This document shows positions 19,497-30,012 of a stretch of DNA of 32,262 bases, piece after piece. Under the pieces are notes generated by a model. That model saw nothing but the letters and a program-made list of their open reading frames with translations. It was not told the origin of the DNA and did not search any database. Both the position numbers and the translations under genes were made by a program. This stretch comes from Macrostomum lignano (lineage: Eukaryota). Position 1 is the stretch's first letter, and each line of letters starts with the position of its first letter. The stretch covers positions 1 to 32,262 of the forward strand of contig NIVC01001452.1 of the NCBI GenBank assembly GCA_002269645.1, given 5' to 3'.

Positions 19497-20143
19497 ACTA
19501 CTATATGAACCCGTATGGCGCGATTTTGCGAAGGTCCGTCGGGCTGATGTCGGCCTCTAGCACCGCGGCAAGGTGCTCCCTCGGGGTGTACCACCTCCCC
19601 CGGGGTGTACCTCCAGCGGGGTGGGTGTCCAGCGAGTGTACCTCCAGCGGGGTGGGCCTTCCGCGAGTGTACATCCGGCCGGCTGGGCGTCCAGCGAGTG
19701 TACCTTCAGCGCATGGGCCTCCCTCGGGGTGTACATCCGGCGGGGGATTCCCGCCCCTCCCACCAATGTCGTGTGCACGCGGTTAGTGTAGGAAGGAAAC
19801 CCCCGATGCTGACGCAGCCCTGTACACTGAGCAACCGGCCCCCCATGCGGGGGACAGAGAGCAGCCCCTGTAGCAGGAGGGGTAGTGCGTGGAGAGCCGC
19901 CATCCCCTGTAGCAAGGGACAGATAACAGGCGCCCCCTGTAGCAGTATGAGGTGGGGTACAAAGAGACACGGGGTGCTGGGACAGAGAGTGCGTGGAGGC
20001 ACCCTGCGCTGCCCTGGCATGTCGCAGCACGCGGCGTGGACAGAGAGGGAGTGTGAGTCACACGGAGGGACAGAGAGCTTCCCCAGGCCGGGGGGGGGGG
20101 TAGAGGGACAGACCGGCGGTGAGTGATAGAGAGCCCCCCCAGG
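19497..20143 (+). repeat. Left terminal inverted repeat (~647 bp)
   Basis: Starts ACTACTATATGAACCCG and is the reverse complement of 29370-30012. Differences are mostly homopolymer length. It contains GTGTAC(A/C)TCC, CCCCTGTAGCA and GGGACAGAGA subrepeats. Confidence 0.97.
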
Positions 20144-20218
20144 CTGCAGAGGGACAGACAGGCCGCGAGCAACGTGTTAATGCAACCATAAATAGAAGCA
20201 GTGTACAAAACCCTCTGT

Positions 20219-20998
20219 ATGGAGAACATGGAAGAGGGTATAACTGATAACCCCTATTTCAGCAACGAGAGCGTGCGCGCCAGATTACCCCTCATTGAAA
20301 GATTGTTATCAGACACTAGGAAAAGAATCGAGGGATTGACCGCAAAGGAGCGCTTAGAATTCACGTATCTAGCCCGGCTGGCATTCGTAACTGAAGTAAA
20401 CATTGAGGAGAGAGAGGTGGCGTTGACTTGGGAGGAAGCAGAAGAAGCGATAAAAACCGGGTCCTGTATGGTCACAGCCAATCTATGGAGTGCGGCAAAA
20501 CACCTCAATGACACGAGGGGGTTAATTGACACAGAGTTTGTTAGACAAGTTCACACACGCGTGTGTAGAGGACTGCTCCCGAATGCAGGATCGTATAGAA
20601 TTAAGCACGCCAAGCCAGCAGGCGCGAGTATGTATTACAGTGCCCCAGAAAATATTGAACGGCAGCTGGTAAAATTAACTAGAGACATAAAAGAGCCACA
20701 AATCTTGCGTGATGCAGTAGTGACAGGAGCATATTTCCTAGAAAAGTTTCTCACCATACACCCCTTTAGCGACGGCAATGGTAGAACTGCTAGGTTGTTA
20801 TTATCAAAGTTGATCAACCGGATTCTGCCAGAACCCGTATCATTTGCGTATGCAAATAGAGACACATATCTCAACTGTCTTTACGAAGCGCGCAGCAGCA
20901 ACCGGGGGCTCCTAGCGGCGTATTTACTTTTATCAATTGAGAGAACCGTTCTACAGTGGAGGGAATGGTTGGAAATCTGTTCAGACGGCAGCCTATAA
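20219..20998 (+). CDS. Fic-domain protein (putative AMPylase)
   Basis: Intact Fic motif HPFSDGNGRTAR (HxFx[D/E]GNGRxxR) with an upstream GSYR flap region. Intronless. Start at ATG 20219 or 20228. Confidence 0.92.
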   Translation: MENMEEGITDNPYFSNESVRARLPLIERLLSDTRKRIEGLTAKERLEFTYLARLAFVTEVNIEEREVALTWEEAEEAIKTGSCMVTANLWSAAKHLNDTRGLIDTEFVRQVHTRVCRGLLPNAGSYRIKHAKPAGASMYYSAPENIERQLVKLTRDIKEPQILRDAVVTGAYFLEKFLTIHPFSDGNGRTARLLLSKLINRILPEPVSFAYANRDTYLNCLYEARSSNRGLLAAYLLLSIERTVLQWREWLEICSDGSL

Positions 20999-21032
20999 AT
21001 AAATAAAATTGGTATTTCTCAACAATATCGAA

Positions 21033-21386
21033 ATGTACTGGCAATCGGAAATAGTGTACACCCACGTTGACAACGCAGTGCTGGAAGTGGGATATTGGGA
21101 CCCAAACAAGCCGCGTTTCCGCATCCACTGTCAAAACTGTAGCTGTCCAGGAGCCGTGTTTAGTCGAGCACAATGGCATCGAATGAAATTTCTGGACACT
21201 AGCTGCACAGATTACGATCTCGGAGGCGGCGCATCTATCAAAGTTATCGACGGGAAGCGCCTGTACGTAAAAGGAGACTGCGAATTTCACCTGTCAGACA
21301 AAATACTTTGTGCAGTTGAAAAGAATAGAGTCGACAATTTCTTCCACTATTTCTTTCTCGACGAATCTGACGAGTCAGAGGAATGA
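21033..21386 (+). CDS. Hypothetical protein (117 aa), acidic C-tail
   Basis: ATG lies 39 nt after TATAAATA. The segment GAVFSRAQWHRM is weakly reminiscent of PC4-like folds, which is not established. Confidence 0.65.
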   Translation: MYWQSEIVYTHVDNAVLEVGYWDPNKPRFRIHCQNCSCPGAVFSRAQWHRMKFLDTSCTDYDLGGGASIKVIDGKRLYVKGDCEFHLSDKILCAVEKNRVDNFFHYFFLDESDESEE

Positions 21387-21898
21387 GCTGGATTTCTCGA
21401 GACTACCCGCTTTTATCGAGCAAAGAAAGGGCAGAGTACGAGACCCTGAAAAAGTCCACAGACTGGTTATGCATTTGTCACGGCAAACCAATTCCCGAAC
21501 GATTAGTCACCTTTAATGTCGAGGTAGACGAAATTGGGCAAGGGCCTTACAGCACCCAAGAATATACAGATGCCCGAATTGACTACTACTTTAGAGACAA
21601 GATGCATTTCAAAGCCAATCTTCAAAGAATGGAGCAGATAATTGCCCCAATATTACAAGAGGATCATCGTGAGAAAATACGGTACCGGAATCACCAGCCG
21701 ATTGCTCCCTCGTGGACGGAACACCAAAGGATTTGGCGACCTAAACACAGTAGACCAGTGCTAGCGAAGTTGACTATCAACCCTCACTGCAGCTGCATTC
21801 ACGACACGCCTCAAACCCCTCGACCAGAAGATCGAAACAAAAGGTTTATTTTTTCCGGATTTCCAACACCGGAAAGTGTCGTTAAAGAAGGACTATAA
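21383..21898 (+). CDS. Hypothetical protein (171 aa) with CxCH and HCxCxH motifs
   Basis: Open ORF whose ATG overlaps the upstream stop (ATGA). Family not recognised. Confidence 0.6.
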   Translation: MSWISRDYPLLSSKERAEYETLKKSTDWLCICHGKPIPERLVTFNVEVDEIGQGPYSTQEYTDARIDYYFRDKMHFKANLQRMEQIIAPILQEDHREKIRYRNHQPIAPSWTEHQRIWRPKHSRPVLAKLTINPHCSCIHDTPQTPRPEDRNKRFIFSGFPTPESVVKEGL

Positions 21899-28180: not shown

Positions 28181-28614
28181 ACACGTTGGAAATTTTGGAG
28201 TGTTTAAAACTACCTGTGGAAGTGCACGTTTGCCCTCTCGACAGAATTCCTGCACCTGTTTACCCTGCTGCATATGTAATTAATTTTGACACGGGTAATC
28301 TGCCAGGCACCCACTGGGGACTGATTTGCCTACACGATGATAAGAGTGTGACATTTTTTGACCCTCTGTGTATTGAACCCGTGCCGGAATTGCTCTCGGC
28401 TTGGATCTCGAAGCATGTACATTCACCTGTTGCTATGAATCGCCACCCTGTTCAACACCCTCTAAGTGTAGCGTGTGGGCCGCATGTGATTTTTGTGGCC
28501 GAAAAGCACTTTTTAGAGGGGTTGTCGATTGAAAAGATTTTAAGGGAATGTTACTCTACCAATCTGCTTGAAAATGATTTGATGGTTCGAAAACATGTTC
28601 TACAAATAAAATAG
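28177..28614 (+). CDS. Adenain-like cysteine protease
   Basis: Catalytic residues in INFDTGNLPGTHW (His), FFDP (Asp), VQH (Gln) and ACG (Cys). Confidence 0.93.
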   Translation: MNTLEILECLKLPVEVHVCPLDRIPAPVYPAAYVINFDTGNLPGTHWGLICLHDDKSVTFFDPLCIEPVPELLSAWISKHVHSPVAMNRHPVQHPLSVACGPHVIFVAEKHFLEGLSIEKILRECYSTNLLENDLMVRKHVLQIK

Positions 28615-28648
28615 TTTTTAATATTTGGAGTGTCAACTCGCCCTGAAA

Positions 28649-29278
28649 ATGTACCAAACAATTGATCCTGACGCTCTAAAGTTTGCTCCAAATACTTCGG
28701 CGATTTTTGCTGGTGTTAACCAGAGCGGAAAAACAACTCTTGTTAAAGAATTGCTGCGAAACGAGTTTTTTCAGGACCCTAAGCCTGTTCGCGTTGATTG
28801 GTTTGGGCACTATCCAGACCCGGAACTGTTTGAATTACCGTACCCTGTCAATTTTCGCTCGTCTACATTTAACCCTGAAACCTATGTTCCCGCTCCGAAT
28901 ATTCTACTCGTTGTCGATGATCAAATGCAAGCCATGGAAAAAAACGCTGCTTTTACCGCATTTTTCACTCGCAAAGTCAGCCATGTGGGATTCCGGCTTT
29001 GGTACCTTGTACAAAACCTGTTTGCCAAGGGCAAGGAGCACCGCACTCAATCCCTTAACGCAAACTACCTTGTATTGTTCCGCAATGTACGGGACGTTAG
29101 TACAGTCGCCCATATTGCAAAGCAGCTTGTCCCCGCTAACCCAAAAAGTTTTGTTCAAATGTACGAAGACGCCACTAGGGAGCCCTACTCCTACTTGATT
29201 GTTAATTGCTTGCAGAACGCATCTGTTCGCTACTATGCTAATGTGTTGGGGCGCTACCCCGTAGTTTATGCTAAATAA
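28649..29278 (+). CDS. A32/FtsK-family genome-packaging ATPase
   Basis: Walker A GVNQSGKTT, Walker B LLVVDD, and LVQNLF...RTQSLNANYLVLFRNVRD. AATAAA at the stop. Confidence 0.93.
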   Translation: MYQTIDPDALKFAPNTSAIFAGVNQSGKTTLVKELLRNEFFQDPKPVRVDWFGHYPDPELFELPYPVNFRSSTFNPETYVPAPNILLVVDDQMQAMEKNAAFTAFFTRKVSHVGFRLWYLVQNLFAKGKEHRTQSLNANYLVLFRNVRDVSTVAHIAKQLVPANPKSFVQMYEDATREPYSYLIVNCLQNASVRYYANVLGRYPVVYAK

Positions 29279-29369
29279 AACACTGTTGGAGAGCTTTGCT
29301 CTGTTTGCCGGATGGCCTGAACCTGAAACAACTAAAATACGTGTTTTTTCTTTTCAAGTCCTCTACTGC

Positions 29370-30012
29370 CCTGGGGGAGCTCTCTATCACTCACCGCCGG
29401 TCTGTCCCTCTACCACCCCGGCCTGGGGAAGCTCTCTGTCCCTCCGTGTGACTCACACTCCCTCTCTGTCCACGCCGCGTGCTGCGACATGCCAGGGCAG
29501 CGCAGGGTGCCTCCACGCACTCTCTGTCCCAGCACCCCGTGTCTCTTTGTACCCCACCTCATACTGCTACAGGGGCCGCCTGTTATCTGTCCCTTGCTAC
29601 AGGGGGATGGCGGCTCTCCACGCACTACCCCTCCTGCTACAGGGGCTGCTCTCTGTCCCCCGCATGGGGGCCGGTTGCTCAGTGTACAGGGCTGCGTCAG
29701 CATCGGGGGTTTCCTTCCTACACTAACCGCGTGCACACGACATTGGTGGGAGGGGCGGGAATCCCCCCGCCGGATGTACACCCCGAGGGAGGCCCATGCG
29801 CTGAAGGTACACTCGCTGGACGCCCAGCCGGCCGGATGTACACTCGCGGAGGCCCACCCCGCTGGAGGTACACTCGCTGGACACCCACCCCGCTGGAGGT
29901 ACACCCCGGGGGAGGTGGTACACCCCGAGGGAGCACCTTGCCGCGGTGCTAGAGGCCGACATCAGCCCGACGGACCTTCGCAAAATCGCGCCATACGGGT
30001 TCATATAGTAGT
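29370..30012 (-). repeat. Right terminal inverted repeat (~643 bp)
   Basis: Ends CGGGTTCATATAGTAGT and is the reverse complement of the left TIR. Confidence 0.97.

What the first reader, a model, noticed from the sequence alone, without database searches (positions are those of the whole stretch)
19497..30012. Apparently intact, young Maverick/Polinton with a full virion module but no DNA polymerase
Seen: TIR-to-TIR element with a perfect TSD and near-identical TIRs. Integrase, MCP, minor capsid, protease, ATPase and core genes are intact apart from one homopolymer frameshift, and ORFs tile the interior with only ~75-90 nt between each TIR and the nearest gene. There is no pPolB ORF or remnant and no helicase/primase. 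Known: pPolB is a defining Maverick gene; pPolB-less relatives such as Tlr elements and many Polinton-like viruses usually carry another replication gene. Inference: either (a) a helper-dependent satellite virus that supplies capsid and integrase and borrows pPolB, (b) one segment of a bipartite Maverick whose second segment shares the TIR and carries pPolB, or (c) a clean deletion derivative. Multiple independent copies would make (a) or (b) a new system.
Basis: partly seen in the sequence, partly recalled or inferred. Interest (0 to 1): 0.85.

Follow-up and report, generated by a model that had tools for sequence, protein, structure and literature searches.

The report
Polymerase-less Maverick with full capsid kit
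A freshly inserted virus-like DNA element in an animal genome keeps its capsid, packaging and integration genes but has no DNA polymerase, so it most likely borrows one from a related element; one copy cannot show whether this is a stable satellite virus or an ordinary deletion offshoot.

Summary
A 10,516-bp Maverick (19497-30012) has a 6-bp TSD, 647/643-bp TIRs (638 of 649 columns identical) and 13 same-strand genes. Spacers total 579 of 9,226 interior bp, the largest 133 bp, so no pPolB fits, and no remnant was detected. The integrase is split once.

The unexplained ORFs are not replicases. ORF 21987 looks like a T7-gp2.5-type ssDNA-binding protein (low-confidence model), 21383 resembles GADD34/ICP34.5 (lead only), and 21033 is unresolved.

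Most likely mechanism: a non-autonomous Maverick that keeps protein-primed-type ends, SSB, integrase and virion module, and borrows pPolB/terminal protein from a sibling. A deletion offshoot is likelier than a stable satellite lineage.

The deciding test, the interiors of other copies, could not be run. One database gene model points to another near-identical, rearranged copy but says nothing about pPolB. Mobile polB-less polintons were already reported in butterflies (bioRxiv 10.1101/2025.02.07.637071). Verdict: a new variant of a known kind, interest 0.5.

The parts
19491..19496 (.). Left target-site duplication (CACAAG)
19497..20143 (+). Left TIR, 647 bp; begins (ACT)2; six GTGTAC motifs between 19586 and 19729 (five of them at 31-nt spacing) and a seventh at 19822
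20219..20998 (+). Fic-domain protein, 259 aa, motif HPFSDGNGRTAR intact
   Evidence: Pfam PF02661 E 6.8e-14
21033..21386 (+). ORF117, unresolved; too small to be a replicase
   Evidence: no Pfam, PHROG or PDB-sequence hit; single-sequence model pLDDT 40, best Z 3.0, no viral fold hit at E<=0.001
21383..21898 (+). ORF171, possible GADD34/ICP34.5-like PP1 regulator (RVxF-like RLVTF motif; family signature recalled); lead only
   Evidence: Atlas PF10488 cluster at 0.89, below the reliable range; pairwise E 0.006 to a similar ORF in Maverick locus L001; no Pfam PF10488 hit
21987..22667 (+). ORF226, probable T7 gp2.5/Enc34-type single-stranded DNA-binding protein; TATA-like box about 50 nt upstream
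   Evidence: model pLDDT 43; top 4 of 48,161 chains are Enc34 SSB Z 6.5, DUF2815 Z 6.0, T7 gp2.5 Z 5.7, ASFV CP312R Z 5.1; 58 BFVD hits at E<=0.001, nearly all listed ones from large DNA viruses
22531..23067 (+). TBP-like open frame of 178 codons, no in-frame ATG, overlapping the ORF226 tail in the +1 frame; candidate 67-nt GT-AG intron 22527-22593 in phase 0/0
   Evidence: Pfam TBP E 9.5e-5, 22.6 bits against a 22.9 cut-off, C-terminal repeat only; PDB TBP E 7e-4; phases
23106..23495 (+). PM / GasderminX-like core gene (name inferred from position and from Pfam Adeno_PX, E 0.006, on the L001 homologue)
23498..24124 (+). PZ-like core gene (name inferred from position)
   Evidence: homologues in L029 and L030
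24258..25336 (+). rve integrase with C-terminal chromodomain-like part, split into two frames near 24980 at a homopolymer tract
   Evidence: Pfam rve E 8.7e-10, Chromo E 0.039; relatives 355-361 aa in one ORF
25349..26479 (+). Minor capsid (penton-like) protein, 376 aa
   Evidence: homologous to the gene between integrase and PW in L001, L029, L030, L033; role from gene order
26523..26867 (+). PW core protein, 114 aa
   Evidence: homologues in L029, L030, L033
26897..28180 (+). Major capsid protein, 427 aa
   Evidence: 11 homologues, 3 at 80-81%; 33 loci; tree
28177..28614 (+). Adenain-type maturation protease, 145 aa; His, Asp and Cys motifs present by eye
   Evidence: homologues E 9e-15; Pfam C48 weak
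28649..29278 (+). A32/FtsK-type packaging ATPase, 209 aa; Walker A and B present by eye
   Evidence: relatives 81-84%; loci
29370..30012 (-). Right TIR, 643 bp
30013..30018 (.). Right target-site duplication (CACAAG)

Best explanation
A non-autonomous, helper-dependent Maverick (Polintoviricetes-type provirus), most likely a clean deletion offshoot of an autonomous sibling family. Shown: recent integrase-type insertion; intact capsid, protease and ATPase frames; no room for pPolB. Inferred: after excision, the short (ACT) repeats at both ends act as protein-primed origins. A sibling with the same ends supplies pPolB and its fused terminal protein in trans. The element's own SSB assists strand-displacement copying. 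The shortened genome can then be packaged and re-integrated by its own or the helper's proteins, like a defective-interfering genome.
For: Spacers total 579 of 9,226 bp, largest 133. There are 0 polymerase-motif hits in six frames of the window, against motif C in 22 of 33 control loci. PHROG DNA polymerase 1907 finds phi29 and 1 of 2 Maverick pPolB pieces, but nothing in the element. Four profiles built from Maverick pPolB pieces give best iE 0.27. The exact 6-bp TSD and 98% TIRs show a recent insertion with these ends. SSB fold. The terminal protein is part of pPolB in polintons (PMC11161782, passages), so it is missing too. Precedent for mobile polB-less polintons with polB-bearing siblings. 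Gene ends carry AATAAA-type motifs at 6 of 14 junctions, which could template a clean whole-gene deletion (inference). P0032 points to another near-identical copy.
Against: No helper or full-length sibling was seen. One search found no non-self protein above 84% identity among 8,000 candidates, and none with a polymerase domain. No deletion scar or truncated neighbour marks where pPolB sat, which fits a long-standing loss just as well. The integrase is split in this copy. The Pfam negative is weak, because PF03175 hit phi29 but none of the Maverick pPolB controls, and all Maverick controls were of a distant type. The SSB call rests on a pLDDT-43 model with Z below 8.
Confidence: 0.45

Rival explanations
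1. A long-standing satellite lineage: the whole clade lost pPolB long ago, keeps the virion and integrase modules under selection, and uses the polymerase of another Maverick or virus.
For: Fully tiled, one-strand genome with no remnant. Uniform random breakpoints would both fall in spacers about 0.4% of the time (6.3% squared, my estimate). The clade is distinct (4 MCPs, 100/100, stem 0.8), and its relatives come from ENA, JGI and Logan records. Two of the three TIR substitutions and the 4-nt indel lie in the inner 55 bp, which suggests old inner boundaries.
Against: No relative's contig could be read; their longest contigs are 1.0-8.8 kb. Gene-end motifs make a recent clean deletion feasible. 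Group 1 Mavericks are described as uniform, mostly with pPolB (10.64898/2026.06.19.733378, passages).
Confidence: 0.22
2. An ordinary Maverick integrated here and lost pPolB in place; the copy is a dead end.
For: Most genomic Mavericks are decayed (96% of vertebrate loci, PMC8097293 passages). The integrase is split, and the other inferred copy (P0032) is rearranged.
Against: The insertion is very young (98% TIRs, 12 of 13 frames unbroken), which leaves little time, and the loss left no partial gene.
Confidence: 0.15
3. It needs no pPolB: it moves by integrase-driven excision and re-insertion and is copied only by host polymerases, with or without packaging.
For: Integrase, capsid and ATPase are present. 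Small relatives without any detectable replication gene are reported among other PLV groups (VC40, passages).
Against: It keeps short terminal repeats of the protein-primed type (function recalled) and a probable SSB. DDE integrases are reported to be tightly associated with PolB (10.64898/2026.10.13.758929, section 11).
Confidence: 0.08
4. One segment of a bipartite Maverick whose partner shares the TIR and carries pPolB.
For: All virion and integration functions sit on one TIR-bounded piece. Segmented PolB-bearing bidnaviruses exist (10.1101/2024.03.25.586562, passages).
Against: No second TIR-bearing piece lies in the 32-kb window. The SSB sits on this piece rather than with a polymerase. 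No positive evidence was found.
Confidence: 0.05
5. Assembly artefact: a pPolB block was dropped.
For: Homopolymer-type differences suggest residual long-read error: three single-base TIR indels in G/C runs, 12 of 78 satellite units with a shorter G run, and the integrase break. The element lies inside a tandem array.
Against: The interior is unique sequence with no long internal repeat to collapse on. Every junction is a tidy gene boundary.
Confidence: 0.05

Closest known systems
Group 1 Maverick/Polinton (Beta-type adintovirus virion module), as in vertebrate Mavericks (PMC8097293, section 7 and passages; PMC8502044, part 2)
   Same: TIRs, 6-bp TSD, rve integrase with chromodomain-like end, minor and major capsid, PW, protease, ATPase, PM and PZ; order int-mcp-pw-Mcp-pro conserved.
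   Different: No pPolB. 10.5 kb against 12.7-24.6 kb for intact vertebrate elements. ATPase follows the protease instead of sitting between pPolB and PM. All genes are on one strand. Ends are (ACT)2//(AGT)2. That survey required integrase and pPolB to co-occur, so it could not have found this form.
polB-lacking polintons of Pieris mannii and other insects (bioRxiv 10.1101/2025.02.07.637071, passages)
   Same: TIR-flanked, keep polinton genes, lack polB, and inferred to have stayed mobile.
   Different: Those carry LINE or gypsy cargo coinciding with the polB loss and have identified polB-bearing siblings. This one has no cargo or scar, and its siblings are unknown.
Tlr1 elements and Polinton-like viruses (PMC5499653, passages)
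   Same: Capsid, ATPase and (in Tlr1) rve integrase without an active pPolB.
   Different: They carry an SF1/SF3 helicase or primase replacement, and most lack the protease. This element has the protease and no replacement replicase.
Entomopoxvirus-associated PLVs and virophages (PMC11296320, passages)
   Same: Small capsid-encoding integrating DNA elements proposed to depend on a helper.
   Different: They encode their own PolB or primase-helicase, and their helper is a large DNA virus. Here no helper is known.

Membership tests
Maverick/Polinton (classical definition) | Long TIRs and 6-bp TSD | tested here: met
   647/643-bp TIRs, CACAAG TSD
Maverick/Polinton (classical definition) | rve integrase | tested here: met
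   Pfam rve; the gene is split once in this copy
Maverick/Polinton (classical definition) | Protein-primed DNA polymerase B | tested here: not met
   No space; no motif or profile hit. It is therefore a Maverick derivative, not a Polinton by definition.
Polintoviricetes-type virion module | Maverick-type MCP, minor capsid, A32 ATPase, adenain protease | tested here: met
   Sequence homology to Maverick loci and proteins; folds not predicted
Polintoviricetes-type virion module | Placement in named group 1 or 2 by reference phylogeny | tested here: inconclusive
   The tree of 20 MCPs has no named reference Mavericks, and the deep nodes are open. Group 1/Beta is inferred from gene content.
Tlr1 / PLV | Helicase or primase-helicase replacing pPolB | tested here: not met
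   No helicase or primase hit in six frames; the unassigned ORFs are only 117 and 171 aa
Satellite virus | Several independent copies or isolates with the same reduced genome | not testable with these tools
   No eukaryote genome collection; viral and metagenome contigs closed; P0032 covers only part of the left half
Satellite virus | Replication depends on an identified helper | not testable with these tools
   No helper seen
Bipartite virus | Second segment with shared ends and complementary genes | not testable with these tools
   Only the window could be searched; none there
T7 gp2.5-type SSB (ORF226) | OB-fold of the gp2.5/Enc34 type | tested here: inconclusive
   The top four hits are of this type, Z 5.1-6.5, rmsd 4.7-5.2 over 121-152 residues, on a pLDDT-43 model

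The most novel reading that the evidence does not exclude
A distinct clade of animal Mavericks has become a stable satellite virus. It has shed pPolB and terminal protein altogether, keeps capsid, protease, ATPase, integrase, an SSB and a spliced SSB-TBP-like regulator under selection, and spreads between genomes by parasitising the polymerase of other Mavericks. Surveys that demand pPolB plus integrase would have missed it by design.
Probability: 0.22. Interest if true: 0.8.

Novelty: new variant of a known kind. Interest (0 to 1): 0.5.

Why it matters
How Mavericks copy themselves has not been shown directly, and no virions have been seen (passage). A young element that inserted without its own polymerase would be natural evidence that pPolB and terminal protein can act in trans, and that the end sequences suffice as origins. 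If the reduced form is clade-wide, it would be a satellite virus of animal polintoviruses, invisible to pPolB-anchored surveys. If it is a single deletion copy, it is a tidy but ordinary non-autonomous derivative.

Tried and rejected
Pfam six-frame scan as proof of pPolB absence: downgraded, because the control failed. PF03175 hit phi29 (E 1e-110) but 0 of the 4 L004 pieces and 0 of 3 L003 frames.

Hidden replicase in ORF117, ORF171 or ORF226: rejected for ORF226 (standalone relatives of 209 and 236 aa; SSB-like fold) and on size for the other two. ORF117 stayed unassigned; my PC4-like guess got no support. The Atlas gave no usable hit for ORF226, and the PDB sequence profile gave none either.

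First TBP repeat in 22531-22800: visible by eye only. It was not recovered by Pfam, PDB, hhalign to Maverick TBP-like proteins (E 0.13) or self-comparison. No SSB-TBP fusion protein appeared among the 6 hits.

Sibling gene models fusing element genes to pPolB: none among 10 hits from 8,000 candidates. The P0032 tail matches neither the window nor the loci.

The GTDB scan gave 33 distant Maverick loci (24-30% MCP identity), none of this clade and none with both TIRs.

A shared P0016/P0005 contig length (8,848) was noticed but not used.

Host identity was not established; a flatworm guess from the repeat landscape is recalled and untested, and literature searches on it gave nothing specific.

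Term searches in PMC10748475, PMC11131425, PMC12220804 and 10.1101/2022.07.12.499685 showed no such case in the passages seen. Subscription papers, figures and supplements were not seen.
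Full report
Observation. The element runs 19497-30012 (10,516 bp) and is flanked by CACAAG on both sides. It sits in a 45-bp tandem array. Removing the element and one CACAAG restores a whole repeat unit, so the 6-bp duplication is genuine. 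The TIRs are 647 and 643 bp, with 638 of 649 columns identical, 3 substitutions and 8 gap columns. Three of the four single-base indels are in G/C runs. Two substitutions and a 4-nt indel lie in the inner 55 bp. The ends read (ACT)2...(AGT)2, the reverse of the commonest vertebrate motif, though an AC-starting motif is on record (PMC8097293 section 7). The flanks hold DHHC exons on the minus strand and PAS and ion-transport exons on the plus strand either side of the array. The insertion therefore most likely lies in an intron of an EAG-type potassium channel gene of an animal (family name inferred from the domain pair). The host was not identified.

Gene content. Thirteen frames, all on the plus strand: Fic, ORF117, ORF171, ORF226, TBP-like, PM, PZ, integrase, minor capsid, PW, MCP, protease, ATPase. 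The names PM, PZ and PW are inferred from position and homology. The integrase is split near 24980. Of 20 hits among 251 candidates, 7 are 67-71% identical; 5 of these are 355-361 aa single ORFs, and 6 span both window pieces. The split is the only break among 46 homopolymer runs of five or more in coding DNA. Of 78 satellite units, 12 have a shortened G run, so a sequencing error is plausible but not shown.

Is pPolB really absent? The strongest argument is space: spacers total 579 of 9,226 interior bp and the largest is 133 bp, while pPolB needs about 3 kb (recalled). Motif patterns found nothing in six frames of the whole window, and found motif C in 22 of 33 control loci. PHROG DNA polymerase 1907 found phi29 and one of two Maverick pieces, but nothing in the element. 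Four profiles built from locus pPolB pieces gave best iE 0.27. All ORFs of 40 aa or more from 34 loci hit only the assigned genes convincingly. Against this, the Pfam negative is weak, since PF03175 missed every Maverick control. The controls are also a distant Maverick type, so a short diverged remnant inside ORF117 or ORF171 is not strictly excluded.

The unexplained ORFs. ORF226 has 4 relatives at E<=1e-10 among 6 hits, two of them full-length standalone proteins. Its low-confidence model (pLDDT 43) matches Enc34 SSB, DUF2815, T7 gp2.5 and ASFV CP312R as the top four of 48,161 chains (Z 5.1-6.5). It also gives 58 viral hits at E<=0.001. Z is below the tool's caution line of 8, so this is a probable SSB. 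ORF171 has an RVxF-like motif and a weak Atlas lead to PF10488 (0.89), and a similar ORF occurs in locus L001 (E 0.006). A GADD34/ICP34.5-like role is a lead only. ORF117 is unresolved.

The missed frame. 22531-23067 is TBP-like in its second half, and TBP-like genes also occur in control Mavericks (L004, E 3.7e-19). It has no ATG and overlaps the ORF226 tail in the +1 frame. A GT at 22527 and an AG at 22593 bound a 67-nt stretch in phase 0/0. The residues at both junctions (K|V and AER) are kept in P0033 and P0035, at 55% and 39% identity. I infer a conserved spliced SSB-TBP-like product. It is untested, and no such fusion was among the hits.

Relatives and copies. The MCP has 3 relatives at 80-81% and then drops to 36% or less. 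These four form a 100/100 clade on a long stem, with deep nodes unresolved (20 rows). Three ATPase relatives are 81-84% identical. Two MCP/ATPase pairs share a longest-contig length (3,422 and 3,773), which suggests, without proving, that the MCP-to-ATPase linkage is a clade trait and not a product of this copy's loss. P0032 is a predicted multi-exon protein made of a TIR piece, part of ORF117 and ORF226, with substitutions and an internal duplication not in the window. It points to at least one more near-identical, rearranged copy with the same left-half order, but says nothing on pPolB. One search found no other non-self protein above 84% among 8,000 candidates. The contigs of the relatives and the host genome could not be read, so copy number and sibling interiors stay unchecked.

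Mechanism. Shown: a recent, precise insertion of a pPolB-less genome with a complete virion gene set. Inferred: the short terminal repeats are protein-primed origins (function recalled). The terminal protein is missing along with pPolB, to which it is fused in polintons (PMC11161782 passages). Both must come in trans from an element with compatible ends, while the element's own SSB assists. I put a helper-mobilised deletion offshoot at 0.45, a stable satellite lineage at 0.22, loss in place at 0.15, host-only copying at 0.08, a bipartite genome at 0.05 and an artefact at 0.05. The lack of any scar favours either long-standing loss or deletion guided by the AATAAA-type motifs at gene ends; the window cannot tell these apart.

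Comparison with what is known. By definition Polintons encode pPolB (PMC5499653 passages), so this is a derivative that works like a Maverick but fails that test. It is not Tlr1- or PLV-like, as it has no replacement helicase. TIR-flanked polB-less polintons that stayed mobile, with polB-bearing siblings, are described in butterflies, there with transposon cargo (10.1101/2025.02.07.637071 passages). PLVs without detectable replication genes are also reported (10.64898/2026.06.19.733378 passages). Searches showed no report of a cargo-free, pPolB-less animal Maverick lineage, but subscription papers, figures and supplements were not seen. The vertebrate survey required integrase and pPolB together, so such forms may be under-counted.

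Other papers were seen as passages only: PMC11131425, PMC11296320, PMC10748475 (no term matches), PMC12220804, 10.1101/2022.07.12.499685, 10.1101/2024.03.25.586562 and 10.1101/2025.04.19.649669. I also saw part 2 of PMC8502044, and passages plus section 11 of 10.64898/2026.10.13.758929.

Verdict. Real, and a new variant of a known kind. Interest 0.5; it would be 0.8 if the reduced genome proves clade-wide.

Noticed in passing
window 22527-23067: ATG-less TBP-like frame overlapping the SSB-like ORF in +1, with a phase-correct 67-nt GT-AG candidate intron whose junction residues are kept in two relatives; possible spliced SSB-TBP fusion.
   Followed up: partly
window 19497-19502 and 30007-30012: End motif (ACT)2//(AGT)2 is the reverse of the usual (AGT)2//(ACT)2.
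   Followed up: partly
window 19666-19676 and satellite 16325-19496: The TIR shares an 11-mer (AGTGTACATCC) with the satellite it inserted into; 42 of 1,000 shuffles reach 11 or more, so this is a weak hint of target preference. GTGTAC recurs 7 times per TIR.
   Followed up: partly
window 20144-20169: A partial extra copy of a TIR sub-repeat follows the left TIR only (I16).
   Followed up: no
window 29335-29360: A pyrimidine tract ending in AG lies between the ATPase stop and the right TIR, resembling a splice acceptor (by eye).
   Followed up: no
window 7446-10131 (minus); 15482-15868 and 31800-32262 (plus): Host DHHC palmitoyltransferase exons, and PAS/ion-transport exons of a probable EAG-type channel gene; the introns are filled with 19-45-bp minisatellites and GATA, AGAC and AGT repeats.
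   Followed up: partly
window 11991-12807: Two nested inverted-repeat pairs (20-nt perfect arms 777 nt apart; 28-nt arms at 12078/12664) suggest a small non-autonomous DNA transposon.
   Followed up: no
L003-L028, L032 (CBDDTI01 contigs): A 'bacterium' MAG in GTDB holds 27 of the 33 Maverick loci found, with TFIIB-like and TBP-like genes and a fragmented pPolB; probably eukaryote contamination. L001, L002, L029, L030, L031 and L033 are similar cases in other prokaryote records.
   Followed up: partly
L001 1-9244: 9.2-kb Maverick contig with ATPase-PM-PZ-integrase-capsid-protease and accessory ORFs on both sides but no convincing pPolB motif; pPolB may lie beyond the contig ends.
   Followed up: partly
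L003 7668-10426; L007 8351-11212: Two adjacent ORFs of about 445-457 aa with similar N-termini, the second being the MCP; possibly a duplicated capsid gene.
   Followed up: no
P0016 and P0005: An integrase of this clade (67%) and a distant MCP (34%) share a longest-contig length of 8,848; if they are on one contig, this would mean module swapping.
   Followed up: no
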